From IMG/VR virus record IMGVR_UViG_3300022699_000302, positions 130,115 to 194,114 of that record: DNA of 64,000 nt; one strand, given 5' to 3'. This document shows positions 8,520 to 47,109 of the stretch, one piece after another. The DNA is from a virus. The first letter of the stretch is position 1. Each line of letters opens with the position of its first letter. The position numbers and the translations under genes are program-made. The notes below the pieces were generated by a model that searched no databases, was not told the origin of the DNA, and saw only the letters and a list, made by a program, of their open reading frames with translations.

Positions 8520-8614
8520 CGGTGCGGCAGCTATCGCTACCTGCTGCTCCTGATGATCGTTAGATCGGTCATCCCCCTTACGGAATTGTCCCGCGAGATA
8601 ATTTCCACTCATCT

Positions 8615-8623
8615 TCTTAGGCC
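8615..8623 (-). promoter_or_regulatory. GGCCTAAGA promoter-like motif, copy 1
   Basis: Identical 9-mer also at 31893 and 33453, all intergenic and all on the minus strand. Confidence 0.55.
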
Positions 8624-28371: not shown

Positions 28372-29517
28372 ATGTCAGTGAAGTGGTTGTCGCGACAGGC
28401 CATCCTGTCCGATTACAATCTCGCTGAAGACAGTCTCGATCATCTCACCGACCTTGAACTCTTCATTCCTGAAGAGAATAAGGTTGTCAGAGGTGTTCGC
28501 CACTTCCGTATTGATCCGCTCCAGGAAGATATCCTTCAACTAGGTGCCTTGCACTACTCCTCGATGAAAAACGGAAAGCGTCCCCTCTTTCCGTATCAGA
28601 AGATCTTGGTGTTCTATCTGTTGACCATAGGGCCCAAGCAGACCTACGACATCTTGCGGAATCGTTTGTTCATCACGTCGGAGCGTCCTACCCAGACCTA
28701 CCTCAAGAATTGGCTGACAGAGATGGTGAAGAGGGCCCCTGATAAGATTAAAGCATGGATCAAAGGGGAACAGACTGAGCCGGATGACAATAACCGAATG
28801 CTGGTCGATAACTTGCTTGTTTTGCTGGACATCGAAGATCTTTTCGAAGATCCCGATTTGGCGGATCTTCCTTTGATCTACGGAAACGGGGTCGTTCGCA
28901 GATCAATCGAGTCCATGCTGGTGACTGATGCTCAGTACGCTCAGATCCGAAAGGTGCTGGAGAGGGTTCACGAGCTCGACATCACGCTTGAAGATCTGAA
29001 GCTGTACCATCGATTCTATTTCGAGTACGACTTGCTGACTCCTGAGGAATTGATCAAGCATGTCGAGACGTACGGGGCGACCCAGTACACCGCGCTCATC
29101 AAGAAGAGCTATAATAAGTCGTTCAATGAGTATGTCCGAGAAAGGCGGTTACCTTTTCTGGTTGAAACTTCAGACATGCTTGATGACATGATTTCTATTG
29201 AGCAGCATCATTACCAGAAATACGCCACTGCCGGAGTAAGTGTCGAAGACTCGAGGAAGCGTACCATTGCGATCAATAACACGCTTTCTCTGATTGAGGC
29301 GAAGAAAGCAGTTCAGGTTGATGATGGTGTTTCCGAAATGGACCGCTTAATGCTCGAGTTTGAGGAAGCCCCGCCTCAAGAAATGAAACTACTCAAACGA
29401 GAAGACATGAACCCGGGCGAAATCGATAGCAAGGAAGTGGTCCAAGGCGCCGGCATGTGGACCTCGGCCGAGGAGATCGAGGATGGTATCAAACGCGACA
29501 GCGGAACCGGCTCCTAA
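28372..29517 (+). CDS. Hypothetical protein, possible terminase small subunit
   Basis: Helical 381-aa ORF directly upstream of and overlapping terL; assignment is positional only. Confidence 0.35.
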   Translation: MSVKWLSRQAILSDYNLAEDSLDHLTDLELFIPEENKVVRGVRHFRIDPLQEDILQLGALHYSSMKNGKRPLFPYQKILVFYLLTIGPKQTYDILRNRLFITSERPTQTYLKNWLTEMVKRAPDKIKAWIKGEQTEPDDNNRMLVDNLLVLLDIEDLFEDPDLADLPLIYGNGVVRRSIESMLVTDAQYAQIRKVLERVHELDITLEDLKLYHRFYFEYDLLTPEELIKHVETYGATQYTALIKKSYNKSFNEYVRERRLPFLVETSDMLDDMISIEQHHYQKYATAGVSVEDSRKRTIAINNTLSLIEAKKAVQVDDGVSEMDRLMLEFEEAPPQEMKLLKREDMNPGEIDSKEVVQGAGMWTSAEEIEDGIKRDSGTGS

Positions 29518-31090
29518 AAAGGTCTATCGGTCCGACGCCTTCCCAGTCATCATTCACATCCGAGAAGGGCTCAAGTACAACATTACGGATCGACCCTACA
29601 TGAAGGAGATCCTCGAGCACCGGTCTGAATACACCACCTGGAAGTGTGGTCGTCAGGTCGGTAAGTCGGTCAACCTCGGTGGCGACTCTGCTATTGAAGG
29701 GGCCATACATCCCGGCTTAGGGCAACTCTACGTGGCCCCTCGCGGTGAGCAGTCCCAGACATTTAGCCGAATGGTCTTTGCTCCGATGTGCAAGTACAGC
29801 CCGTTCCTTCAGAAGTTTATACCGAAAGGGAAAGACGCGGTCTGGCAGATCGGTACTCGAGAGTTTACCAACGGCTCTTATTTTTACTTCAGATCTGCTT
29901 ATCTCGATCCCGACTCGATTCGTGGTTTGACTGCATATCGCATCAAATTCGATGAGTACCAAGATTTCATCTCAGATCATGTCGGGCCGATCGAGGAGTG
30001 TGCCGGTAACGCTCCTCCTGAAGTTCGGCAATTCTATCGAAGCGGTACTCCGAAGACTTTTCAAAACCCACTGGAGAGATCTTGGCAGGATTCGTCGCAG
30101 TGCGAGTGGTTTATCCGGTGTCCGTCCTGCGGTCACTACAACTTCCAAGACGTCCACATTCTCGAGCCAGAGAGGTATGTCTGTCATAAATGCAAAGGGA
30201 CTTTAGATCCCCGCATCGGTATCTGGGTTCCTGGAAGAGAAGACAGACTGGGTGAGCACGATGGTTGGCGTATTACGCAATTGATGAACCCCAACGTCAC
30301 TCCGAAGATCTTGTGGAAGAAGCTCAAAGACTACCCGATTTCACAGTTCTTCAACGAGTGCCTTGGCCTGTCTTATTCAGAGGGTAAGCTTGTTTTATCC
30401 GAAGAGGACATGGTTCGAGCTTGTGTCCCCAAAAAGAAGATGCTTCAGCCTTACGAGAGATCCGGTATGGCTTTGGTGGCGGGTATCGACTGGGGTACTG
30501 GTGGTGTCGGGGCAACCCGTAAGCGCGGTCAGACCCAGGTTAGTTACACCACACTAACCATTGGTGGGCTGAGGAACGGGCAATTCCATGTTGTCTACAT
30601 GAAGCGGTTTACCGGACGAGAAGCAGAGCTCTCGGCTCAGCCCGGTATTATCCATCGACTCTTGAATCAGTACGGTGTTCGCCTGGTTATGTCGGACTGG
30701 GGGTTCGGCGCACCCCTGGCTGCTGTCTTGATGAACAAGTATGACTGGAAATACCGTAACTTCTTCCAGGTCCAGGAAGGTGCTCAATCTGCTCTGATCA
30801 AATGGAATAAGCAGGCCCATCGATACATCTTGGACCGGAACGAGGGATTCCTGAAGGTTATCGAAGATATCAAGGGCGGACGCATCACCTTCTTCGAGTG
30901 GGAGCAGATGAAGGAATTCGCCCAGGATTTCACTACGATCTTTGTCGAGCTCGACGCCGATAAGCGTAAGATGAGGTTCGACCATAAAGATCCGGACGAC
31001 TGCTTTCACTCAACCATGTATTCGTATCTTGGAGCGTTGAAGTTGGCCGGTGCCCTGTCCCGATACGATCTCACTTCGTTGACGAAATAA
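29483..31090 (+). CDS. terL: Terminase large subunit (GpA-like, with Zn ribbon)
   Basis: Walker A CGRQVGKS, YVAP, Walker B IKFDEYQD, SGTP coupling motif, CPSC/CHKC, nuclease GIDWG and DDCFHS. Confidence 0.92.
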   Translation: MVSNATAEPAPKKVYRSDAFPVIIHIREGLKYNITDRPYMKEILEHRSEYTTWKCGRQVGKSVNLGGDSAIEGAIHPGLGQLYVAPRGEQSQTFSRMVFAPMCKYSPFLQKFIPKGKDAVWQIGTREFTNGSYFYFRSAYLDPDSIRGLTAYRIKFDEYQDFISDHVGPIEECAGNAPPEVRQFYRSGTPKTFQNPLERSWQDSSQCEWFIRCPSCGHYNFQDVHILEPERYVCHKCKGTLDPRIGIWVPGREDRLGEHDGWRITQLMNPNVTPKILWKKLKDYPISQFFNECLGLSYSEGKLVLSEEDMVRACVPKKKMLQPYERSGMALVAGIDWGTGGVGATRKRGQTQVSYTTLTIGGLRNGQFHVVYMKRFTGREAELSAQPGIIHRLLNQYGVRLVMSDWGFGAPLAAVLMNKYDWKYRNFFQVQEGAQSALIKWNKQAHRYILDRNEGFLKVIEDIKGGRITFFEWEQMKEFAQDFTTIFVELDADKRKMRFDHKDPDDCFHSTMYSYLGALKLAGALSRYDLTSLTK

Positions 31091-31126
31091 AATAAAAGAA
31101 AAAGACAAGGGCCCCCGAAGGGGCCC
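31091..31126 (-). terminator. Intrinsic terminator closing the minus-strand island
   Basis: GGGCCCC-TTCG-GGGGCCC followed by TTGTCTTTTTCTTTT. Confidence 0.8.
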
Positions 31127-31148
31127 CTGGAAGTGGCTGAATCTTCTG

Positions 31149-31466
31149 TTATGCAGCGGGTGTCACCACTTCGTGTTGCTCTTCCTCGATCGGTACGGCT
31201 CGATCCTCACCGAGTCCACGACCCTCTTTCTTCCTGATGTAGACCAGGGCCGAGAGTGCCGCGATGCCGGCGATGAACGCAGCACCGATCAAGAGGGGAT
31301 TGGCGACGATTCCGAGTAGCAGGAAACCGCCGGCCATCCCCGTTAGGGTAAACGGTGCGAACTTCCTTGTTGTGGAAGTCCACTTTCCGTAGGCCTCTGA
31401 CGCGGCCCAGCCGAACGAAGCAACCGCAAGAGCAGCGGTTGCAACGCTGAGGATGAATGTGAACAT
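31149..31466 (-). CDS. Small membrane protein (about 3 TM)
   Basis: GGAGG RBS; three hydrophobic segments. Confidence 0.7.
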   Translation of the reverse strand: MFTFILSVATAALAVASFGWAASEAYGKWTSTTRKFAPFTLTGMAGGFLLLGIVANPLLIGAAFIAGIAALSALVYIRKKEGRGLGEDRAVPIEEEQHEVVTPAA

Positions 31467-31510
31467 GATACCTCCTGGACAAGTTCACAGATTAGTCGCG
31501 CGAAAGCTGC

Positions 31511-31852
31511 CTACGCAGCAGCCTTCATGGTCGAGCCCTGGAACCCCAGGTACTCGAAGGTCTGACCCCACGAAGTCTTCTGACCTCGCAAACGGCGAAG
31601 CGATTTACGCATCGCCCAGGCATCGACACCGCACGCCAGGATCAGCGTGGCGCCACCGACGATGGATATGGGATTGCCGGTCAAGATCCCGAGGGCGATG
31701 GCGGCACCGCCCCCCAGTACTCCGGTGTAGATTGCCAATCGCCTCATTTTGGGTTCTCGGCTCGTGTTCCTCGACCCGAAGCTGGCGCCGGTGAAGAAGA
31801 TCGACCCGCTCAGCAGAGCGGACGTGACAAGCGAAAAGATTGCCATGAACAT
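31511..31852 (-). CDS. Small membrane protein (about 3 TM)
   Basis: AAGGAGG RBS; three hydrophobic segments. Confidence 0.7.
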   Translation of the reverse strand: MFMAIFSLVTSALLSGSIFFTGASFGSRNTSREPKMRRLAIYTGVLGGGAAIALGILTGNPISIVGGATLILACGVDAWAMRKSLRRLRGQKTSWGQTFEYLGFQGSTMKAAA

Positions 31853-31892
31853 GCTAACCTCCTTATGTTTAGGACTAGATACCTCTCTATTT

Positions 31893-31901
31893 TCTTAGGC
31901 C
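31893..31901 (-). promoter_or_regulatory. GGCCTAAGA promoter-like motif, copy 2
   Basis: 41 nt upstream of ATG 31852 and adjacent to palindrome copy 4. Confidence 0.6.
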
Positions 31902-31905
31902 ATAT

Positions 31906-31928
31906 TTGGTTGCATCTGGTGCAACCAA
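31906..31928. repeat. 23-bp dispersed palindrome, copy 4 (intergenic)
   Basis: TTGGTTGCATC T GGTGCAACCAA (one deviation from the consensus). Confidence 0.9.
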
Positions 31929-31936
31929 GTCGAGGT

Positions 31937-31963
31937 AAAATAAAAGGACCCCGGAGGGTCCTT
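31937..31963 (-). terminator. Intrinsic terminator
   Basis: AAGGACCC-TCCG-GGGTCCTT followed by TTATTTT, directly after stop 31962. Confidence 0.75.
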
Positions 31964-32309
31964 AAATTTGATCCATCATCCACTTATAGGTTAGGGGTGT
32001 CGGGGTAAAGACAACATACGACCCTGCCCCTTCTTTGACTGAAAATAGATTAGTTTCCTCCAGGTAGCTTTTCCCTCTTTCCCTGGATACCCGGGTACGC
32101 AGTCCAGCCGCTCGAGAAAAACTGACAAACGGGATAATCATCGGGTCACCTGGTTGAAGGGTTATTTTCTTGGCCAGGATTTTCAGTTTTTGGTACAAGA
32201 ACAGCGCGCTTTTTTCGCTGGGAGGGAATCGATAGTGGACCCATTCCGCTTCGGATTCGAATTCAGACTCAAATTCGTCTTCTCCGTTAAAGGCTGTTTC
32301 GGCAGTCAT
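31962..32309 (-). CDS. Hypothetical protein, possibly winged-helix
   Basis: CAGGAG RBS; helix-turn-helix-like FSRAAGLRTRVSRERGKSYLEE followed by a beta-hairpin. Confidence 0.5.
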   Translation of the reverse strand: MTAETAFNGEDEFESEFESEAEWVHYRFPPSEKSALFLYQKLKILAKKITLQPGDPMIIPFVSFSRAAGLRTRVSRERGKSYLEETNLFSVKEGAGSYVVFTPTPLTYKWMMDQI

Positions 32310-32326
32310 GGCATCTCCTGATAGTA

Positions 32327-32363
32327 AGAAAACGGAACAGGGGCCCCCTCGCGGAGGCCCCTG
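32327..32363 (-). terminator. GC-rich hairpin, terminator or 3' end of the ncRNA
   Basis: CAGGGGCCTCC-GCGA-GGGGGCCCCTG followed by TTCCGTTTTCT. Confidence 0.65.
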
Positions 32364-32534
32364 CTAGATGTTGGTCGAGGATAAGTACGAGCAGATTAGC
32401 TACCGGGCTTATACCTTAGACACAGATGTGGGCGGGCGAGTCATTGCCCTGATGCCCAGACACAGATAGGTTTGACCGGCTGTAAATCATCCCCTCTCGA
32501 GGACAATTTTCCATTGGTCTCGCCCAACACCAGC
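32363..32534 (-). ncRNA. Candidate structured ncRNA of about 172 nt (unassigned)
   Basis: Ends pair (GCTGGTGTTGGGCGAG with CTCGACCAACATCTAGC); 11-bp stem with GAGA tetraloop at 32484-32509; twin ATCTGTGTCT at 32418-32427 and 32458-32467. Confidence 0.65.
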
Positions 32535-32543
32535 ACCTCCGAA

Positions 32544-33062
32544 CTACTCAAAGAGTGATTCAGGGATGTCCATCTCAACTTCCTGGGCGTTCAGGGTGGC
32601 GAGCGTCGAACGGAGTGAAGCTAACCGTCCCGCCCAGGTTTCAGCTTGCTTGCCGGCGTCTTCCCGGCTGTACCGTTTTTCCGCGTACTCCTTGTCGGCC
32701 TCTTTGACGGTACGCGTGTCGTCGTCGTAGTAGCGGCGACGGTCCCGCTTCGGGGCGGCCATCCGCCTCCACTTTTTCTCGATCCGAGAGACCGGTCCCA
32801 CCAACTTGATGATGAGGGCCAGGGAGATCTTCCCGAAGGACTTCATTTCAGCCGCAACCTTGAGGTTGTACTGCTGGTTGGCTTCCTGCAGCTGGCAGGC
32901 CTTTTCTTCCGCGCGGAACAGATCCAGCGTGATCTCGTCCATCGGCCGCTTGTCGTCGTCCTTGAAGCCGGTCTTGGAGTCGTCGAACTCAGAGTTCAGC
33001 ATATCGATCTTCAAGTTCGTCTTCTTCAGCTCCTCTCGGAGCTTGTATCCTGTGACTTTCAT
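32544..33062 (-). CDS. DIP1984-like coiled-coil protein (172 aa)
   Basis: GAGGA RBS before ATG 33062. The pattern LQEANQQYNLKV / ISLALIIKL / AETWAGRLASLRSTLATLNAQEVE resembles the DIP1984 family (recognition from memory). Confidence 0.55.
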   Translation of the reverse strand: MKVTGYKLREELKKTNLKIDMLNSEFDDSKTGFKDDDKRPMDEITLDLFRAEEKACQLQEANQQYNLKVAAEMKSFGKISLALIIKLVGPVSRIEKKWRRMAAPKRDRRRYYDDDTRTVKEADKEYAEKRYSREDAGKQAETWAGRLASLRSTLATLNAQEVEMDIPESLFE

Positions 33063-33088
33063 GGGTCCTCGATAAAATGGGAGTGGAA

Positions 33089-33185
33089 CAAGTGTGGTGG
33101 AGGCCGACCGTCCCACTACGATCGACCTCCGGGGCTTCGCGTTGCCGGGGGCAGAGGCAACTACAGGCGAAGCGACCCACACTTG
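33089..33185 (-). ncRNA. Candidate three-way-junction RNA, 97 nt (unassigned)
   Basis: P1 CAAGTGTGG/CCACACTTG; P2 GCTTCGC+GTTGCC/GGCAAC+GCGAAGC; P3 13 bp with two G.U wobbles that pair only on the minus strand. Confidence 0.7.
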
Positions 33186-33191
33186 GAGCAG

Positions 33192-33410
33192 TTACTTCTC
33201 GGCAGTGAACGCCTCAAACAACCCGATGTTTCGCCATCGGTTTCCATCTTCTGACAACTCCAGGACCGTGAGGCCTCCGGGAATGTTTTTCCCGAAAACG
33301 TCTCGGACCAAGAGTTCGAGTCTGTCGCGGTCAACTCCGCCTTCGTGGGGTTGGCGTAGCTGCAGAGCTACGCCGTTTTCCGCGACCCAGTATTTTCCTG
33401 AGCCTGACAT
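33192..33410 (-). CDS. Hypothetical protein (72 aa)
   Basis: AGGAGG RBS 5 nt before the ATG. Confidence 0.7.
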   Translation of the reverse strand: MSGSGKYWVAENGVALQLRQPHEGGVDRDRLELLVRDVFGKNIPGGLTVLELSEDGNRWRNIGLFEAFTAEK

Positions 33411-33452
33411 TTTAACCTCCTGGATAGCGGGACAATAATTCCTGCTTCATGG

Positions 33453-33461
33453 TCTTAGGCC
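33453..33461 (-). promoter_or_regulatory. GGCCTAAGA promoter-like motif, copy 3
   Basis: 43 nt upstream of ATG 33410. Confidence 0.6.
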
Positions 33462-33523
33462 GAGACTTACAGCCTTTTTGGTGCTAAATCTCTAACCTGT
33501 TGATGAGGCCATGGGAGAACTCA

Positions 33524-34990
33524 ATGGAGATAACACCGTATTCGCTTGGTCGAATGGTGAACGAAGCCGCATCCGGCTTCAGCGAATCCAAAGACCTAAA
33601 CAAGGAAGTCGCTAAAGTCGCAGAAGCCAATGAGCTAACGCCGACTCAGATTCAGGCTTTGGTAGAAGAGTCGAATCATGAGGTCTACCGCCGTCTCTAC
33701 AAGACAGCGGAGGACAAGCGATTCACTTTTAATATGGCAGAAACGGATAAAGTTCTGGATCTGCTACATCCCGGTGAATCAAAGCTGAAGGTAGCCGAGG
33801 TATCCTCAGTCGGATTCGATGAGCTTCGAATCGATTTTACCCGGGAGAAGCGTGCATCCGAAAAGATTGCGCAGCCGATTCCGGATTGGATTCGTGATGA
33901 TAACGCCAGGCTCCGCACCACCAAGCACCTGCTCAGAGGATCCTCGGACGAACTGAAGAAGTACGCCGAACAGTTCCGTCAGAAAGCCAATTATTCCAAA
34001 CTTGCGGCGGCGGAAGCTGCTAGTCGTTTTCTCCACGAGGTTCAACAGAACGTCCGGAACGGCATCCCCTATCAGACCCTGTATAAGTTGGCTGTGGCCC
34101 AGGCCCCCGATTTTCAGCCGGCGATCCAGGGTGTCTTTGAAGACATCCGTGAGGAGTATCTGAAGACAGCAACCGAAGTTGAGACCGATCTTCTTGAGTT
34201 TGATCCCGAAAAAATCGACGGTAAGGACGAAATCGGTACTCGCGTGGTCAACGGAAACAATCCGTTGTTCATCCATCTCACAACGATTTTGGATGAGTGC
34301 AAGAATCGCTTCCTTGCCGATCCTCTGAGCCGCCATCTCGAAGATACGGCTAGTGCTATTGTTTCATCGATGCATCGACTTAATACTCCGGACGATGTCG
34401 ATTCCTACATTGCGAATGAGGCGCAAAGATTCGCTCACGCCGTAAAGATGGGATCGGATGAAGCGATTACCGCCTGCGGTATTCTCGAGTTCGAACGACT
34501 CGAGCAGGCCGGTGAGAATCTGAAAACAGCTGCTGCTGAAAGCCCTTGGTTGGCGGAGATCAGCAAAGGAGCTGCTGGCGGGGCTCCTGCCACTGTCGGA
34601 AAAGCGATTTCTAAACTTCCAGTCCCCGGGGCTAGCCTTGCAGGAAGTGCGGTTCGAGGGACAGGTGAGGCGTTGAAGGCCGCTCCGGGTCGTATGGCTC
34701 GTGGAGCTAAAGGGCTTGTGAGCGGAGGCAAAGGTCTTTATGAAGGCGCCAAATGGCTTGGAAAAGGAAAGAAGCTTTTCCTTCCCAAGGGACGTATCTA
34801 CGAGATGATGTTCAGTCCTGCTGGGTTCGGGTCCGGTAAGGGCGGGCAGGGTACCGGTCTTGCCGGCCTTGCCACTGCGTTGTATGGCGGCGGACAGGCT
34901 CTGGAAGGTGCTGGTCGGGCCGCGAGTCAATTTGGTGAAGCTGCTCTGAGTCCGGGCGAGCGCATCACGGGTATTGGTATGGCGAGGTAA
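33524..34990 (+). CDS. Putative internal head protein rich in KxA motifs
   Basis: GGAG RBS before ATG 33524; more than 10 KxA/G motifs; Gly-rich amphipathic C-terminus. Confidence 0.65.
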   Translation: MEITPYSLGRMVNEAASGFSESKDLNKEVAKVAEANELTPTQIQALVEESNHEVYRRLYKTAEDKRFTFNMAETDKVLDLLHPGESKLKVAEVSSVGFDELRIDFTREKRASEKIAQPIPDWIRDDNARLRTTKHLLRGSSDELKKYAEQFRQKANYSKLAAAEAASRFLHEVQQNVRNGIPYQTLYKLAVAQAPDFQPAIQGVFEDIREEYLKTATEVETDLLEFDPEKIDGKDEIGTRVVNGNNPLFIHLTTILDECKNRFLADPLSRHLEDTASAIVSSMHRLNTPDDVDSYIANEAQRFAHAVKMGSDEAITACGILEFERLEQAGENLKTAAAESPWLAEISKGAAGGAPATVGKAISKLPVPGASLAGSAVRGTGEALKAAPGRMARGAKGLVSGGKGLYEGAKWLGKGKKLFLPKGRIYEMMFSPAGFGSGKGGQGTGLAGLATALYGGGQALEGAGRAASQFGEAALSPGERITGIGMAR

Positions 34991-36115: not shown

Positions 36116-38941
36116 GTGCTGATCAAATATACACCTCCTGCATTGGATGATTTTGAGCCGCCTGCGGTCGATATCTTCGGTCGTGAATGGGGGAAGTATG
36201 CCAGTCGCAGCTATACTCCTCCTAAGATCGAGGAGTACCTTAAGACAGCTGAACCGGTAGACGGGCACCGTATCATCCTTGTTCATGGCCTGGGTTCATC
36301 CGAGGTATGGGGGGCTAACCGTAACGGAGACGCTTTTCCTGAGCACATGGTGGGTCCCGAGGGTCAAAAAGAAGCGACCCTAATCAACGGAGACGAAGAC
36401 AAGGACTGGGGGTACCACACCTTCCAGAAATACGCTTACTCTTTTCGTGACCACAAAAACCAAGATCCTAAGCTCACGATTGGTGGCAAAGTGATCGTGG
36501 CCGACTGGAACCCCGAGATGCACCGGGTCGAGATCGTTATGCCGATCTCGGAAAAGCTGGCTGCTGATGTAGTTGAGAAGATCGATAAGGGCGAGCCCGT
36601 CGAGGTTTCGATGGGTTGCTTCATCGCGGGTACGCTGATTACGATGGCCGACGGTTCCCGGAAGCCGATCGAAGATATCCAGGTTGGTGATTACGTACTG
36701 ACTCACAAAGGCCGTTCCCGCAAGGTGACCGAGCTTCATAAGCGGCCGTACGACGGCGTGTTCTTCGCGATCAGGCCTGAGGCGCACGAGCCTTTTGTAT
36801 GTACTCAGGAGCACCCTCTTCTTGTCGTAGACCGTGATGACGTCAAGAAAGGTAAATCGGGAGGGCCTCGATGGGTCACCAAGGAAGAGGCAGATCGAAT
36901 TGAGCCCAAGTGGATTCACGCCGAGTGCTTCAATCCCGATCAGCATTATCTACTTGAGCCGGTCTTGCAGGACGTTGTGACACCTGAGTACGCCACTCGT
37001 GAGTTTGCCCGTCTGCTTGGATATTATGTTGCCGAAGGGCATGTTCTTCGAAACAAGAGCAAAGACATTTGCGGCGTAGAGTTCACCGTCAATACGTCGG
37101 ATATTTTCTTGACCGAGATTGGTGAGCTTGCCGAGAAGTACGGCACGAAGAACCCGCCTGTAATACGTCAACGGGATAATTGTGACGACGCCGTGTCTGT
37201 TCAGATTTTTGATGCGGAGCTGGCCGAGCGGTTGTACGCCCATGGTGGATCGTACGCCAAACAGAAAAAGCTGTCCGAATCCTTCATGCAGTGGCATCCG
37301 GACATCCAGCGTGAATTCGTTGGAGCCTGGGCAGAAGGTGACGGGCACGGTCTGGATTCTGGAGCACTCAGCATTTCCACCGGATCTGATGCCTTGGCTT
37401 GGCAGTTGATGACTGTCCTGGCCCGGATGGATATTTGTGCTTCAATCAATTGCCTTACCCACAAGGCCGGATCTGGTCTCTCGAAGAAGACCACATATGA
37501 GTGGGTAATTCACGTCGGAAAACAGTGGGCACAAGATCTTCACGATGTGTGTTTGAAAATCAAAGACTCGCCCGTTCTTCTGGCGAAGAATAACCGCCTG
37601 CACACAGGTAAGTTCATCATCACTCCTGTGCGGGAAATGGAAGCCAGTCGTAACGCAGTCGATGTTTACAACTTCGAGGTGGAAGAAGATGAATCCTATG
37701 TAGCCGCCGGGGTTGCGGTTCACAACTGCAAGGTCGCTTATGATGTCTGCACCAAGTGCGGCAACAAAGCCAAAAACCGAGGCTATTATTGCAAGCATGC
37801 CCGGTATGAGATGGGCAAGCGCGACCCCGACGGACGCAAGACAGCAGTGCTCAACCCGCGTCCGAAGTTCTTTGACATTTCGATCGTGAAGCGCGGGGCT
37901 GATCGCGGAGCCAAGATTCTACTGAAAGTGGCCTCGAGCCAGATCCAAGTCCCGGATTGGCCGGATCGTAAATCAATCACAGCTGGCCTCAAGCTGAGTG
38001 ATATCGAGAAAGAAGTGCCCGGCGCCATCAAAGGCATCTCTCCGAGTACTTCAATGCAGAACCTCGAGAAGTCCCTTCAGCGCCGTATGGTTCAAGCCGA
38101 TATGGCTACGGCTGAGCCCCTGCCTCCCAAGGTCGCTTCTCTCATGAAAACGCGTCCTGACGAGGCATACTCAGCCCTTACCTCAGCGGGCATTGTATTG
38201 ATGCCGGGTGAGACTCCTGACGCTAAATCTCTGAAGCTCGGTTCGTATCGCCCCGATATTTGGGCTGGTATTGATCTCGAAGAGCTGATGAAAAAGAGGT
38301 CGATGTACGACCCGTTCTTCCTGCCTCGTGTCTTCACCAAGATGGCTCAGGCCAAGCACGGGATAATTGATCTCTCTGAAGAAAAGTTGGCTGCATCCGA
38401 TGCAACCAATTCAACGTATCGTACCTATCTCAAAATGCTGGGTGATATGTTCCGCAACGGGGATAAGTTGGCGGCCCTCTTCAAAACAGCCAATGAAGAT
38501 GAGCGAGTAGTCTATCAAGTCCGTAAGGGTGTCGATGAGTGGGCGAAGTTTGCCTACTACTGGGACTCCACGGAACGAAAAGGTTACTCGATTGACGATA
38601 TCGCTAATTTTCTCGGCCTTGATCAAGAAAAGACAGCAGCTCTACCTTCAGCCAAGCAGGTAGGTGAAGCTGCTCAGTGGGGCTGGGAAGGAGCAAAAGG
38701 TTTGGGTCGCGGTCTTACGGAGGCTTTAGGTATGGGAGCAACTCCTGCCTATCCCTTCTCCGCAGGGGTTGCGGCTCTTGGCGCCCCGATGCTGATGAGT
38801 CAATTCTATGCCGATAAGATGATGCGTGGTGAGGATCCTGGTGTTGTAGGACGCACTGTCGCTAAGCATCCATTGGCTACCTCAGCAGCAGGTCTTTTGG
38901 GGTCGATGAAACTTCATTCAGCTATGAATAGGTGGCGCTAA
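36116..38941 (+). CDS. Prohead (maturation) serine protease with intein and C-terminal extension
   Basis: NRNGDAF, FRDH (His), VSMG (Ser), CTKCG..CKH, FFDISIV..GAD..AKI. Confidence 0.8.
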   Translation: MLIKYTPPALDDFEPPAVDIFGREWGKYASRSYTPPKIEEYLKTAEPVDGHRIILVHGLGSSEVWGANRNGDAFPEHMVGPEGQKEATLINGDEDKDWGYHTFQKYAYSFRDHKNQDPKLTIGGKVIVADWNPEMHRVEIVMPISEKLAADVVEKIDKGEPVEVSMGCFIAGTLITMADGSRKPIEDIQVGDYVLTHKGRSRKVTELHKRPYDGVFFAIRPEAHEPFVCTQEHPLLVVDRDDVKKGKSGGPRWVTKEEADRIEPKWIHAECFNPDQHYLLEPVLQDVVTPEYATREFARLLGYYVAEGHVLRNKSKDICGVEFTVNTSDIFLTEIGELAEKYGTKNPPVIRQRDNCDDAVSVQIFDAELAERLYAHGGSYAKQKKLSESFMQWHPDIQREFVGAWAEGDGHGLDSGALSISTGSDALAWQLMTVLARMDICASINCLTHKAGSGLSKKTTYEWVIHVGKQWAQDLHDVCLKIKDSPVLLAKNNRLHTGKFIITPVREMEASRNAVDVYNFEVEEDESYVAAGVAVHNCKVAYDVCTKCGNKAKNRGYYCKHARYEMGKRDPDGRKTAVLNPRPKFFDISIVKRGADRGAKILLKVASSQIQVPDWPDRKSITAGLKLSDIEKEVPGAIKGISPSTSMQNLEKSLQRRMVQADMATAEPLPPKVASLMKTRPDEAYSALTSAGIVLMPGETPDAKSLKLGSYRPDIWAGIDLEELMKKRSMYDPFFLPRVFTKMAQAKHGIIDLSEEKLAASDATNSTYRTYLKMLGDMFRNGDKLAALFKTANEDERVVYQVRKGVDEWAKFAYYWDSTERKGYSIDDIANFLGLDQEKTAALPSAKQVGEAAQWGWEGAKGLGRGLTEALGMGATPAYPFSAGVAALGAPMLMSQFYADKMMRGEDPGVVGRTVAKHPLATSAAGLLGSMKLHSAMNRWR
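36617..37726 (+). mobile_element. Intein with LAGLIDADG homing endonuclease (370 aa)
   Basis: N-terminus CFIAGTLITMADG; C-terminus VYNFEVEEDESYVAAGVAVHN followed by +1 Cys; LLGYYVAEG and FVGAWAEGDG endonuclease blocks. Confidence 0.95.
38387..38409. repeat. 23-bp dispersed palindrome, copy 5 (inside the protease gene)
   Basis: TTGGCTGCATC C GATGCAACCAA, read as LAASDATN. Confidence 0.9.
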
Positions 38942-46428: not shown

Positions 46429-47109
46429 ATGGCGAATACGTTTGTTGATCCTGATGAACCCGAAAATCCGCACGAGCCTCTAAAATTCTTTTCTCTTGGA
46501 AACGAAGAGGCTCGTGCGGACGTGGGTTCGCGGGCACAGCGGCTGATTCTCGACATTCTTCAAACCATGTTCGGGTCTGACGAGATCTTAGACGGCTGCC
46601 CGAACCCCTATCGTTGGTACCCCAGCACATCCGGTGATGAGAGCGAAATCCTTATCGCTCACTCATTCGTTGAAGAGCACACCATCAAGAACCCGAATCA
46701 CTCGATCCTGGTAGGTCGCAGAGCAATCGAGACGATGAAGACTGGGATCAATAATTGGAACCAACCCAACCTGGTCAAGTCCGGAGGAAAGTTTTCCACC
46801 CTAGCCCGGACTGCAATTGACATCGAATGTAAGTCCAGAAAATCCAAAGAGGCGAATACAATCGCCACACTGGTATGGATGGCTCTTCTGATGTATCGCG
46901 ACGTGATCCGCAGAAGAGGCGACTTCTTCCGAGTAGGTAACCCTGTAATGGGCGCTGAACAAGTCGCGAAGGGTCAACAGGATTCTGAGATCAAAGAGAC
47001 CGTTGTCCTGGTGTCCTTACCTCTAGAATGGTCTATGACGTGGGTATTTTCTTCTAACCTGCGGAAAAAACTGCAAGTGATGATGACAACGAATGTTGTC
47101 GACTGCTAA
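46429..47109 (+). CDS. Tail terminator/completion protein
   Basis: Directly upstream of the sheath; IDIECKSRKSKEANTIA pattern. Confidence 0.5.
   Translation: MANTFVDPDEPENPHEPLKFFSLGNEEARADVGSRAQRLILDILQTMFGSDEILDGCPNPYRWYPSTSGDESEILIAHSFVEEHTIKNPNHSILVGRRAIETMKTGINNWNQPNLVKSGGKFSTLARTAIDIECKSRKSKEANTIATLVWMALLMYRDVIRRRGDFFRVGNPVMGAEQVAKGQQDSEIKETVVLVSLPLEWSMTWVFSSNLRKKLQVMMTTNVVDC

What the first reader, a model, noticed from the sequence alone, without database searches (positions are those of the whole stretch)
33089..33185. Compact three-way-junction RNA in the leader of the same DIP1984-like gene
Seen: 97 of the about 130 intergenic nt fold on the minus strand into P1 (9 bp, perfect), P2 (7+6 bp with a 5-nt bulge and loop TCTGCCCCC) and P3 (13 bp with two G.U and loop AGTGGG), joined by very short linkers GTC/CCC/A. 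The L2 CCC and L3 GGG could form a kissing contact, and GGG in P1 can alternatively pair with the J2/3 CCC. It ends about 18 nt upstream of the RBS. It lacks hammerhead (CUGAnGA/GAAA) and purine-riboswitch core nucleotides. Inference: an unknown riboswitch, ribozyme, processing element or protein-binding leader. Together with the downstream RNA, it sandwiches the gene between two structured RNAs.
Basis: partly seen in the sequence, partly recalled or inferred. Interest (0 to 1): 0.72.

Follow-up and report, generated by a model that had tools for sequence, protein, structure and literature searches.

The report
Conserved three-way-junction RNA between phage genes
A very stable 97-nt three-armed RNA fold between two genes of an uncultured 194-kb phage is real and kept by compensatory mutations in the only two related phages found. 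It looks like a rigid processing or stability element, or a small stable RNA, and not like a riboswitch or ribozyme.

Summary
Window 33185-33089 (minus strand) folds exactly as described, at -54.6 kcal/mol and z = -5.7. It ranks fifth of about 15,500 100-nt windows in the whole 194-kb phage genome.

P1 and P3 are kept in two related metagenomic phages: 22 pairs, 100% paired, 6 pairs changed on both sides. The element is 94% identical to its nearest relative, while the flanking gene is 77% identical. The fold is stronger on the sense strand and the element is not coding.

No Rfam family, tRNA or terminator model matches. It occurs once in the genome, and I found it in only three distinct sequences.

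It is not a general leader of the gene family:
- Homologs at 67% and 38% identity have a promoter-like region directly upstream and no junction RNA.
- Two distant homologs have a tRNA ending 30-34 nt before the start codon, which is the same slot.

Junction linkers and P2 are not conserved, P1 is very strong, and nothing occludes the RBS. A riboswitch or ribozyme is therefore unlikely. My best reading, at moderate confidence, is an intercistronic processing/stability module or an excised stable RNA within one promoter-to-terminator unit.

The "DIP1984-like" label is supported at fold level (PDB 3KDQ). The downstream RNA is conserved much more widely than this element.

The parts
33445..33461 (-). 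Phage promoter-like motif (GGCCTAAGAC-CATGAAG) that probably starts the transcription unit
   Evidence: GGYCTAAG occurs 32 times in the 194-kb genome against 13.6 expected. Nearly all copies have the extended form GGCCTAAGAnnATAGAG, 20-45 nt upstream of an RBS/ATG. It is conserved upstream of ORF73 in L005. Related motifs lie directly upstream of the homolog in L002 and L130. There is no such motif between ORF72 and the gene.
33192..33410 (-). ORF72, a small conserved protein of unknown function and first cistron of the unit
   Evidence: 63% identical to the 73-aa ORF of L005; its C-terminus is conserved in L006. No Pfam, NCBIfam or PHROG hit and no informative Atlas hit.
33089..33185 (-). The 97-nt three-way-junction RNA. 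P1 33185-33177/33097-33089; J1/2 33176-33174; P2 33173-33134 (bulge 33166-33162, loop L2 33155-33147); J2/3 33133-31; P3 33130-33118/33111-33099 (loop L3 33117-33112); J3/1 33098
   Evidence: Fold and z-score. CM R1 hits only the window, L006 and L005. Pair counts: 100% paired, 6 pairs changed on both sides. Strand asymmetry. 94% identity to L006 against 77% for the gene.
33063..33088 (-). Unstructured 26-nt spacer holding the RBS GAGGA (33070-33066)
   Evidence: Sequence. The RBS is not sequestered in the MFE or centroid fold of the 146-nt context. A 1-nt indel here in L006 breaks the upstream frame.
32544..33062 (-). 172-aa DIP1984-like helical-bundle protein, second cistron
   Evidence: All homologs are 164-183 aa and start at the equivalent ATG. 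There are 498 cluster representatives at E<=1e-3. AF2 pLDDT is 92.9. The best PDB match is 3KDQ. Atlas neighbours are viral/Bacillota clusters, and PF20935 (DUF6847) is found in one of them.
32336..32534 (-). Downstream structured RNA ending in an intrinsic terminator (stem 32365-32336), at the end of the unit
   Evidence: Terminator scan. Alignable in L006, L005 and L002. A CTTATC-like box followed by a G+C hairpin and U-tract also occurs in L130 and L132; only the box is seen in L131, L007 and L135.

Best explanation
The element is a genuine RNA structure transcribed as an internal part of one phage transcription unit. That unit runs: promoter-like motif at about 33461, ORF72, the junction RNA, the DIP1984-like gene, the downstream RNA, and the terminator at 32336.

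It is a rigid, non-switching fold. P1 (9 bp) and P3 (13 bp) are separated by a single A, so they can stack into about 22 bp of continuous helix, with P2 as a variable side arm.

I think it most likely acts in cis as an intercistronic processing/stability module. A double-strand- or shape-specific RNase (RNase III- or RNase P-like) would recognise it, or it would act as an exonuclease roadblock. Either way the ORF72 and DIP1984-like cistrons become separate mRNAs with structured, protected ends. This is the role that the tRNA at the same position (ending 30-34 nt before the start codon) would play in distant relatives.

Shown: the fold, its statistical excess, its conservation with compensatory changes, strand specificity, non-coding status, single copy, the lack of an RBS-occluding alternative, and the tRNA-for-junction positional equivalence. 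Inferred: transcription from the upstream motif, any cleavage, and the effect on mRNA stability or translation.
For: The fold is strong and dominant: z = -5.7 and 60% of the ensemble. It ranks fifth of about 15,500 genome windows.

P1 and P3 are 100% paired in three distinct sequences. Six pairs are changed on both sides, and only 3 of 500 shuffles reach this. Slid registers give 33-52% paired.

The element is 94% identical between window and L006, against 77% for the adjacent gene and about 53% for the ORF72 3' end.

It is sense-strand specific through G.U pairs.

The only promoter-like motif lies upstream of ORF72, and the only terminator lies after the downstream RNA. The RNA is therefore internal to a bicistronic transcript.

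The element is present only where a second cistron (ORF72/73) precedes the gene. It is absent where the promoter-like region abuts the gene (L001-4, L130).

In L007 and L135 a tRNA, a classic processing signal, ends 30 and 34 nt before the homolog's ATG. Here the element ends 26 nt before it.

The RBS stays unpaired. Junction nucleotides and P2 differ in L005 while the helices persist. This fits a shape-recognised element rather than a ligand pocket.
Against: There is no direct evidence of transcription, cleavage or RNA ends.

Only three distinct sequences exist, two of them very similar, so the covariation statistics are weak.

The near-invariance of loops and linkers between window and L006 is more than a simple helix-recognising RNase site would need. 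It fits an RNA with a specific partner just as well.

The C-run in L2 and the G-run in L3 are kept in all three copies and are unexplained by this model.

The host and its RNases are unknown.
Confidence: 0.4

Rival explanations
1. It is a small stable non-coding RNA in its own right. It would be excised from the operon transcript as tRNAs are. It would then act in trans or as a partner or substrate of a phage protein (ORF72 or the DIP1984-like protein). The C-rich L2 and G-rich L3 would serve as interaction surfaces.
For: Sequence conservation is far above that of the flanking genes, loops and linkers included, between window and L006.

The L2 C-run and L3 G-run are retained in all three copies despite the remodelling of P2.

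The gene family repeatedly sits among RNA genes. In L007 there are a tRNA-Gln, an RNase P RNA, a tRNA-Ser and another tRNA. In L135 there is a 12-tRNA cluster. In L139 tRNAs start about 200 nt downstream.

The gene also carries a widely conserved downstream RNA.

From my own knowledge, phage T4 has stable RNAs of unknown function in its tRNA cluster.
Against: It has no promoter or terminator of its own. It is restricted to three sequences. It is absent from most family members, so it cannot be an obligatory partner of the protein. No target or binding partner can be named.
Confidence: 0.25
2. It is a protein-binding operator in the leader of the DIP1984-like gene. Binding of a phage or host protein to the junction would control translation initiation or mRNA decay of the downstream cistron.
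For: It sits 18 nt upstream of the RBS. It is a rigid, conserved shape.
Against: Homologs of the gene mostly lack the element. The RBS is not part of the structure. There is no sequence repeat shared with the downstream RNA. No binding evidence can be obtained with these tools.
Confidence: 0.12
3. It is a processive antitermination (put/EAR-like) RNA. It would modify the transcribing polymerase so that it reads through the terminator at 32365-32336 into the next gene (32309-31962).
For: In the window the next gene starts 27 nt after the terminator and has no GGCCTAAG-type motif in front of it. In L130 and L002, which lack the junction RNA, that motif follows the terminator and precedes the next gene.
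Against: This rests on one genome. The L005 and L006 contigs end before the relevant region, so the correlation cannot be tested. The terminator's interrupted U-tract may simply be leaky. There is no similarity to any known antitermination RNA in Rfam.
Confidence: 0.05
4. It is a riboswitch aptamer or a self-cleaving ribozyme.
For: It is a compact three-way junction in a 5' leader with possible loop-loop contact, an architecture shared with purine, TPP and hammerhead RNAs.
Against: No Rfam family matches, even at E<=10. The junction nucleotides, where ligand pockets and catalytic cores sit, are not conserved: GUC/CCC/A versus A/UA/none. P2 is replaced by a 66-nt arm in L005. P1 is 9-12 bp and the MFE structure dominates the ensemble. 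No terminator or anti-RBS expression platform follows. The hammerhead CUGANGA/GAAA motifs are absent.
Confidence: 0.06
5. It has no function. It would be a fortuitously stable G+C-rich spacer, or a remnant such as a decayed RNA gene or recombination scar, that has simply not yet diverged.
For: Its distribution is very narrow. L005 has a different P2 and different linkers.
Against: The z-score is -5.7 to -6.6 in all three copies. Six pairs have double changes and not one of 66 cells is broken. Conservation is higher than in the flanking coding sequence.
Confidence: 0.08

Closest known systems
tRNA genes embedded in phage operons (tRNA punctuation, RNase P/Z processing)
   Same: The position is the same relative to the homologous gene. 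A tRNA-Ser ends 30 nt before the ATG in L007, and a tRNA-Ile ends 34 nt before it in L135. The junction RNA ends 26 nt before it here. All are compact, very stable, multi-helix RNAs far more conserved than the neighbouring ORFs.
   Different: It has three helices, not a cloverleaf. P1 is 9 bp and P3 is 13 bp. There is no T-loop, no anticodon loop and no 3' CCA context. ARAGORN and Rfam tRNA do not match.
Phage RNase III processing sites (T7 R0.3-R18.5, lambda N leader and sib; from my own knowledge)
   Same: It is an intercistronic, highly stable duplex in a phage polycistronic transcript. P1+P3 can stack into about 22 bp, the length RNase III needs. Such sites leave protective hairpins at mRNA ends.
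   Different: Known sites are single irregular hairpins, not three-way junctions. Cleavage has not been shown, and the host is unknown.
phi29 packaging RNA (pRNA, Rfam RF00044)
   Same: It is a three-way-junction phage RNA with two apical loops that are mutually complementary (C-run in L2, G-run in L3). It is encoded about 2 kb from the large terminase gene.
   Different: There is no Rfam match at E<=10. The phage is 194 kb with direct terminal repeats and a gpA-type terminase, not a phi29-like protein-primed podovirus. The element lies inside an mRNA between two ORFs. The loop complementarity is only 3-4 G-C pairs and shows no covariation.
Purine riboswitch and hammerhead ribozyme (three-way-junction RNAs)
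   Same: The three-helix topology with side-by-side P2 and P3, and the possibility of a loop-loop contact.
   Different: The conserved cores are absent, the junction is not conserved, there is no expression platform, and there is no Rfam hit.
Flavivirus-type exoribonuclease-resistant RNA (xrRNA)
   Same: It is a compact three-way junction placed directly upstream of a sequence to be protected. In the window and L006 the L3 loop could pair with a UCCCAU/UCCCGU box 12-15 nt downstream of P1 (read).
   Different: That pseudoknot is not possible in L005. There is no 5'-end-to-junction pseudoknot and no Rfam match. This is purely a lead.

Membership tests
Any Rfam 15 family | Covariance-model score at or above the gathering threshold | tested here: not met
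   There were 0 hits in the 64-kb window at gathering thresholds. Nothing overlaps the element's helices at E<=10 in 32300-33500; the one weak lncRNA match (RF02139, 16 bits, E 5.8) only touches its first 4 nt. Nothing was found on the L005/L006 copies.
tRNA / tRNA-like | Cloverleaf with a 7-bp acceptor stem, T-arm and T-loop, and anticodon arm | tested here: not met
   ARAGORN finds no tRNA in the window, L005 or L006. Rfam tRNA does not match. The fold has three helices of 9, 13 and 13 bp.
Hammerhead ribozyme | CUGANGA and GAAA core strands at the junction, with linkers of about 7/3/1 nt | tested here: not met
   The linkers are GUC/CCC/A in the window and A/UA/none in L005. The core motifs are absent. 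There is no Rfam hit.
Purine or other three-way-junction riboswitch | Conserved junction nucleotides forming the ligand pocket | tested here: not met
   The junction strands differ completely between window and L005.
Purine or other three-way-junction riboswitch | Expression platform (a terminator or RBS-sequestering alternative that competes with P1) | tested here: not met
   The RBS is unpaired in the 146-nt context. No terminator-like site follows the element. The MFE structure holds 60% of the ensemble.
Intrinsic terminator | G+C hairpin followed within 0-2 nt by a U-tract | tested here: not met
   The terminator scan of 31000-34000 reports none at 33089. The genuine terminators of the island are at 32336, 31944 and 31106.
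phi29 pRNA | Three-way junction with two loops complementary for intermolecular ring formation | tested here: inconclusive
   The L2 C-run and L3 G-run are present in all three copies. This is only 3-4 G-C pairs with no covariation. Oligomerisation cannot be tested.
phi29 pRNA | Own transcript in a phi29-like phage with protein-primed DNA; match to RF00044 | tested here: not met
   There is no RF00044 match. The genome is 194 kb with direct terminal repeats and a gpA-type terminase. The element lies between two ORFs with no promoter motif of its own.
RNase III processing site | About 20 bp or more of (quasi-)continuous duplex | tested here: inconclusive
   P1+P3 give 22 bp if coaxially stacked across a single A in the window, and 26 bp in L005. 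The stacking is inferred.
RNase III processing site | Cleavage by RNase III | not testable with these tools
   There are no RNA-end data.
DIP1984 family (NF038048) / DUF6847, for the neighbouring protein | Profile match above the curated cut-off | tested here: not met
   The window protein has no Pfam or NCBIfam hit. One of 54 family members hits NF038048 at 3.3e-4 and one hits PF20935 at 2.9e-3.
DIP1984 family (NF038048) / DUF6847, for the neighbouring protein | Same fold as the solved DIP1984 structure | tested here: met
   The AF2 model has pLDDT 92.9. The top Foldseek PDB hit is 3KDQ, a C. diphtheriae protein of unknown function, with TM 0.65/0.72 and prob 1.00. The next hit has TM 0.29. 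Atlas neighbours include a cluster with PF20935. That 3KDQ is DIP1984 is from my memory.

The most novel reading that the evidence does not exclude
The junction RNA is a new class of small stable phage RNA that has taken the place of a tRNA next to a DIP1984-like gene. Together with the widely conserved downstream RNA, it would form an RNA-protein module with a tRNA- or RNA-processing-related role. It might act, for example, as a decoy or substrate mimic for a host RNase or for tRNA-targeting defence. The C-rich L2 and G-rich L3 would mediate a specific intra- or intermolecular contact.
Probability: 0.12. Interest if true: 0.7.

Novelty: new member of a known kind. Interest (0 to 1): 0.42.

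Why it matters
The element itself is an orphan structured RNA motif with a very narrow known distribution: three metagenomic phage sequences. Its value is mainly as a clean, testable example of a conserved intercistronic RNA fold in an uncultured jumbo-size phage.

The context gives it more interest. The neighbouring gene belongs to a large uncharacterised family, with about 500 cluster representatives and a DIP1984-like fold. That family repeatedly sits next to tRNA genes, and once next to an RNase P RNA, and it carries its own conserved downstream RNA. If the junction RNA is a functional stand-in for the tRNA found at the same place in relatives, it would point to an RNA-centred role for this family and offer a handle to study it.

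Tried and rejected
Rfam gave nothing overlapping the element's helices, at gathering and at E<=10 thresholds on the window and the homolog loci; the only row that touches it is a weak lncRNA match (RF02139, E 5.8) reaching its first 4 nt.

ARAGORN found no tRNA in the window.

An N-terminal coding extension from GTG 33182 is rejected, because stops lie in that frame in L006 and L005.

A repeated or mobile element is rejected. CM R1 finds a single copy in the 194-kb genome.

The search for more copies found no true hit:
- A pattern scan of IMG/VR gave 3 chance hits.
- A pattern scan of JGI/ENA metagenomes gave 118+ hits. The 80 loci returned were screened with R1 and none scored.
- A pattern scan of GTDB genomes gave 3 hits, none significant.
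- R1 with filters off on all other homolog loci gave nothing below E 0.5.

Cultured phages hold no DNA or protein match for this gene or two distant family members.

IMG/VR searches with the 172-aa protein, TerL, P0013 and P0005 found no relatives. Alignment A3 was too divergent for the search for related loci.

The ORF72 homolog search returned only itself. A search for short fragments of the gene gave nothing. The last contig look-up, L143, gave a copy identical to L005.

A T7-like single-subunit RNA polymerase (PF00940) gave no match in the genome, but the search's control genomes also gave nothing, so absence is not shown.

The alternative pairing of P1 GGG with J2/3 CCC is rejected, because J2/3 is UA in L005. 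The L3-to-downstream-spacer pseudoknot is possible in the window and L006 but not in L005.

A literature search for DIP1984, DUF6847 and 3KDQ found nothing. Only unrelated 'septicolysin' annotations came up.

Full report
**What is there**

On the minus strand, a 72-aa ORF (33410-33192) is followed by a 129-nt gap and then a 172-aa ORF (ATG 33062 to stop at 32544).
- P1 is 9 bp.
- P2 is 7+6 bp with a 5-nt bulge and a 9-nt C-rich loop.
- P3 is 13 bp with two G.U pairs and loop AGUGGG.
- The linkers are GUC, CCC and A.

The MFE is -54.6 kcal/mol and the MFE structure holds 60% of the ensemble. Against dinucleotide shuffles z = -5.70, with 0 of 200 as stable. The fold survives in a 146-nt context, and the RBS (GAGGA, 33070-33066) stays unpaired.

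I folded every 100-nt window of the whole genome on both strands. This one ranks fifth of about 15,500 after GC correction. It is the only compact multi-branched element among the twelve best. The rest are long hairpins, terminators or structures within coding regions.

**What the genome is**

The window is the last 64 kb of a complete 194,114-bp IMG/VR virus record with direct terminal repeats. The record has 52.8% G+C. It carries a gpA-type large terminase at 29483-31090 and an intein-bearing protein at 36116-38941.

The element sits in a five-gene minus-strand island between plus-strand structural genes.

A motif GGCCTAAGAnnATAGAG occurs 32 times in the genome against 13.6 expected. It almost always lies 20-45 nt before an RBS and behaves like the phage's promoter. 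One copy lies upstream of ORF72 (33461-33445) and none lies between ORF72 and the 172-aa gene. The first terminator-like site after it on that strand, apart from a weak 6-bp stem inside ORF72, is at 32365-32336, after the downstream RNA. I infer that the junction RNA is internal to a bicistronic transcript of about 1.1 kb.

**Conservation**

The 172-aa protein has four close relatives in public assemblies. I fetched their contigs.
- L006 (78% protein identity) has the same 97-nt element with six substitutions. Five of them are in P3 and all preserve pairing, including one C-G to U-A change.
- L005 (80%), and an identical copy in L143, has P1 lengthened to 12 bp with two double changes. Its P3 has further double changes. 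Its P2 arm is entirely different at 66 nt but still ends in a C-run loop. Its L3 is still G-rich.

On the model-guided alignment all 22 P1/P3 pairs are paired in all three sequences. Six pairs are changed on both sides, only 3 of 500 column shuffles reach that, and slid registers give 33-52% pairing.

All three copies fold 4-10 kcal/mol better on the gene-sense strand.

Nucleotide identity between window and L006 is 94% in the element, 77% in the adjacent gene and about 53% at the end of ORF72.

In the window, a GTG at 33182 is in frame with the ATG. In L006 and L005 that frame has stops, so the element is not a coding extension.

With only three distinct sequences the statistics are modest, but every line of evidence points the same way. 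I put the probability that this is a selected RNA structure at about 0.85-0.9.

**What it is not**
- No Rfam family matches at gathering thresholds or at E<=10.
- ARAGORN sees no tRNA.
- The terminator scan does not call it.
- The hammerhead core motifs are absent.
- It is single-copy in the genome.
- Pattern scans of IMG/VR, the metagenome collection and GTDB genomes, screened with the covariance model, gave only chance hits.

**It is not a general leader of the gene family**

The family is large: 498 cluster representatives at E<=1e-3. In the next-nearest homologs (L001-4 at 67% and L130 at 38%) a divergent gene and a promoter-like region with GGTCTAAG abut the gene. That 94-nt leader has no significant structure (z = -0.7). 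In L132 the gene overlaps an upstream ORF.

Most telling are two other contexts. In L007 a tRNA-Ser ends 30 nt before the ATG. In L135 a tRNA-Ile ends 34 nt before it, inside a 12-tRNA cluster. In L139 tRNAs begin about 200 nt downstream of the gene.

The junction RNA, which ends 26 nt before the ATG, therefore occupies a slot that relatives fill with a tRNA. It appears only where another cistron (ORF72/73) precedes the gene.

**Mechanism**

A riboswitch or ribozyme is unlikely. The junction strands, where pockets and catalytic cores lie, are not conserved (GUC/CCC/A versus A/UA/none). P2 is replaced wholesale. P1 is very strong. There is no competing expression platform.

The features that are conserved are shape features: two long helices that can stack into 22-26 bp, and a side arm.

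I therefore favour (0.4) a cis-acting intercistronic processing/stability module. An RNase III- or RNase P-like enzyme would recognise it, or it would act as an exonuclease roadblock. This would uncouple the two cistrons as an embedded tRNA would.

The main rival (0.25) is a stable excised ncRNA with a specific partner. That would better explain the near-invariance of loops and linkers between window and L006, and the retained C-run and G-run loops.

Minor rivals are:
- A protein operator (0.12).
- A put-like antitermination RNA (0.05). This is suggested only by the missing promoter motif in front of the next gene in the window, whereas L130 and L002 have one there.
- A riboswitch or ribozyme (0.06).
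- No function (0.08).

**The neighbouring protein**

It has no Pfam, NCBIfam or PHROG hit of its own. An AF2 model built on 54 homologs is confident (pLDDT 92.9). Its only good PDB match is 3KDQ, the C. diphtheriae protein of unknown function, which I recall to be DIP1984. The scores are TM 0.65/0.72 and prob 1.0, and the next hit has TM 0.29.

One family member touches NF038048 (3e-4) and one touches PF20935. Atlas neighbours are viral and Bacillota clusters, and one of them carries PF20935.

**The downstream RNA**

The region after the gene aligns well in L006, L005 and L002. A CTTATC-like box before a G+C hairpin terminator recurs in L130 and L132, and the box alone is seen in L131, L007 and L135. 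It is therefore much more widely linked to the gene than the junction RNA is. The 'sandwich' is a peculiarity of this small subclade.

**Verdict**

This is a real and conserved but narrowly distributed orphan RNA structure of unknown function. It is most likely an intercistronic processing/stability element or a small stable RNA, and it is unlikely to be a riboswitch or ribozyme. Interest is moderate. The broader association of the DIP1984-like phage family with RNA genes is the more promising lead.

Noticed in passing
window 33445-33461 (-), 31885-31901 (-), 8607-8623 (-), and 29 further sites in the genome outside the window: The motif GGCCTAAGAnnATAGAG occurs 32 times in the 194-kb genome against 13.6 expected. 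28 of the 32 copies are on the minus strand, 20-45 nt upstream of an RBS. It looks like the phage's own promoter class, with a T7/SP6-like TATAG at the presumed start. A PF00940 search for a T7-like polymerase gave no match, but its control genomes also gave nothing, so absence is not shown.
   Followed up: partly
window 32336-32534 (-); L002 2554-2800; L130 3119-3350; L132 4520-4790; L131 675-870: The structured RNA downstream of the DIP1984-like gene is conserved far beyond the junction RNA. It aligns in homologs at 67-80% identity. A CTTATC-like box plus a G+C hairpin terminator recurs at 35-38% identity. This looks like a gene-plus-3'-RNA module worth its own study.
   Followed up: partly
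L007 743-1092 (+): A full-length bacterial class A RNase P RNA (211.6 bits, E 4e-68) lies on a 2.2-kb metagenomic contig. It sits between tRNA-Gln and tRNA-Ser, directly upstream of a DIP1984-like homolog and another tRNA. This may be a phage-borne RNase P RNA. The contig is too short to tell phage from cell.
   Followed up: no
L135 465-8357; L139 2975-3196 and 5312-5384; L007: Three of about nine independent genomic contexts of the DIP1984-like phage family place the gene directly among tRNA genes. L135 has 12 tRNAs in 8.5 kb. This suggests an RNA- or tRNA-related role for the family.
   Followed up: partly
window 31962-32309 (-): The 115-aa gene after the terminator at 32336 has no promoter-like motif in front of it. 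In L130 and L002 such a motif lies between the terminator and the next gene, which is weakly similar (27% identity). So this gene may depend on terminator read-through.
   Followed up: partly
window 33192-33062 (-): In the window, ORF72, its TAA stop, the junction RNA and the 172-aa gene all lie in one reading frame with a single stop. This is not so in L006 or L005, so it is probably coincidence.
   Followed up: yes
window 36116-38941 (+): A 941-aa protein carries an intein with Hint and LAGLIDADG homing-endonuclease domains at about residues 165-540.
   Followed up: no
genome 122788-122942 (-), about 7.2 kb before the window: ARAGORN finds only two tRNAs in the whole phage. One has a CUA anticodon (an amber suppressor, called tRNA-Pyl). 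The adjacent one has a four-base anticodon call, CTTA.
   Followed up: no
window 46437-46560 (+); genome 58776-58900 (+): These are other exceptionally stable local folds. One is a hairpin of about 100 nt with a perfect 15-bp top (-59.6 kcal/mol, rank 1 after GC correction). The other is a 70% G+C segment at -74.9 kcal/mol.
   Followed up: no
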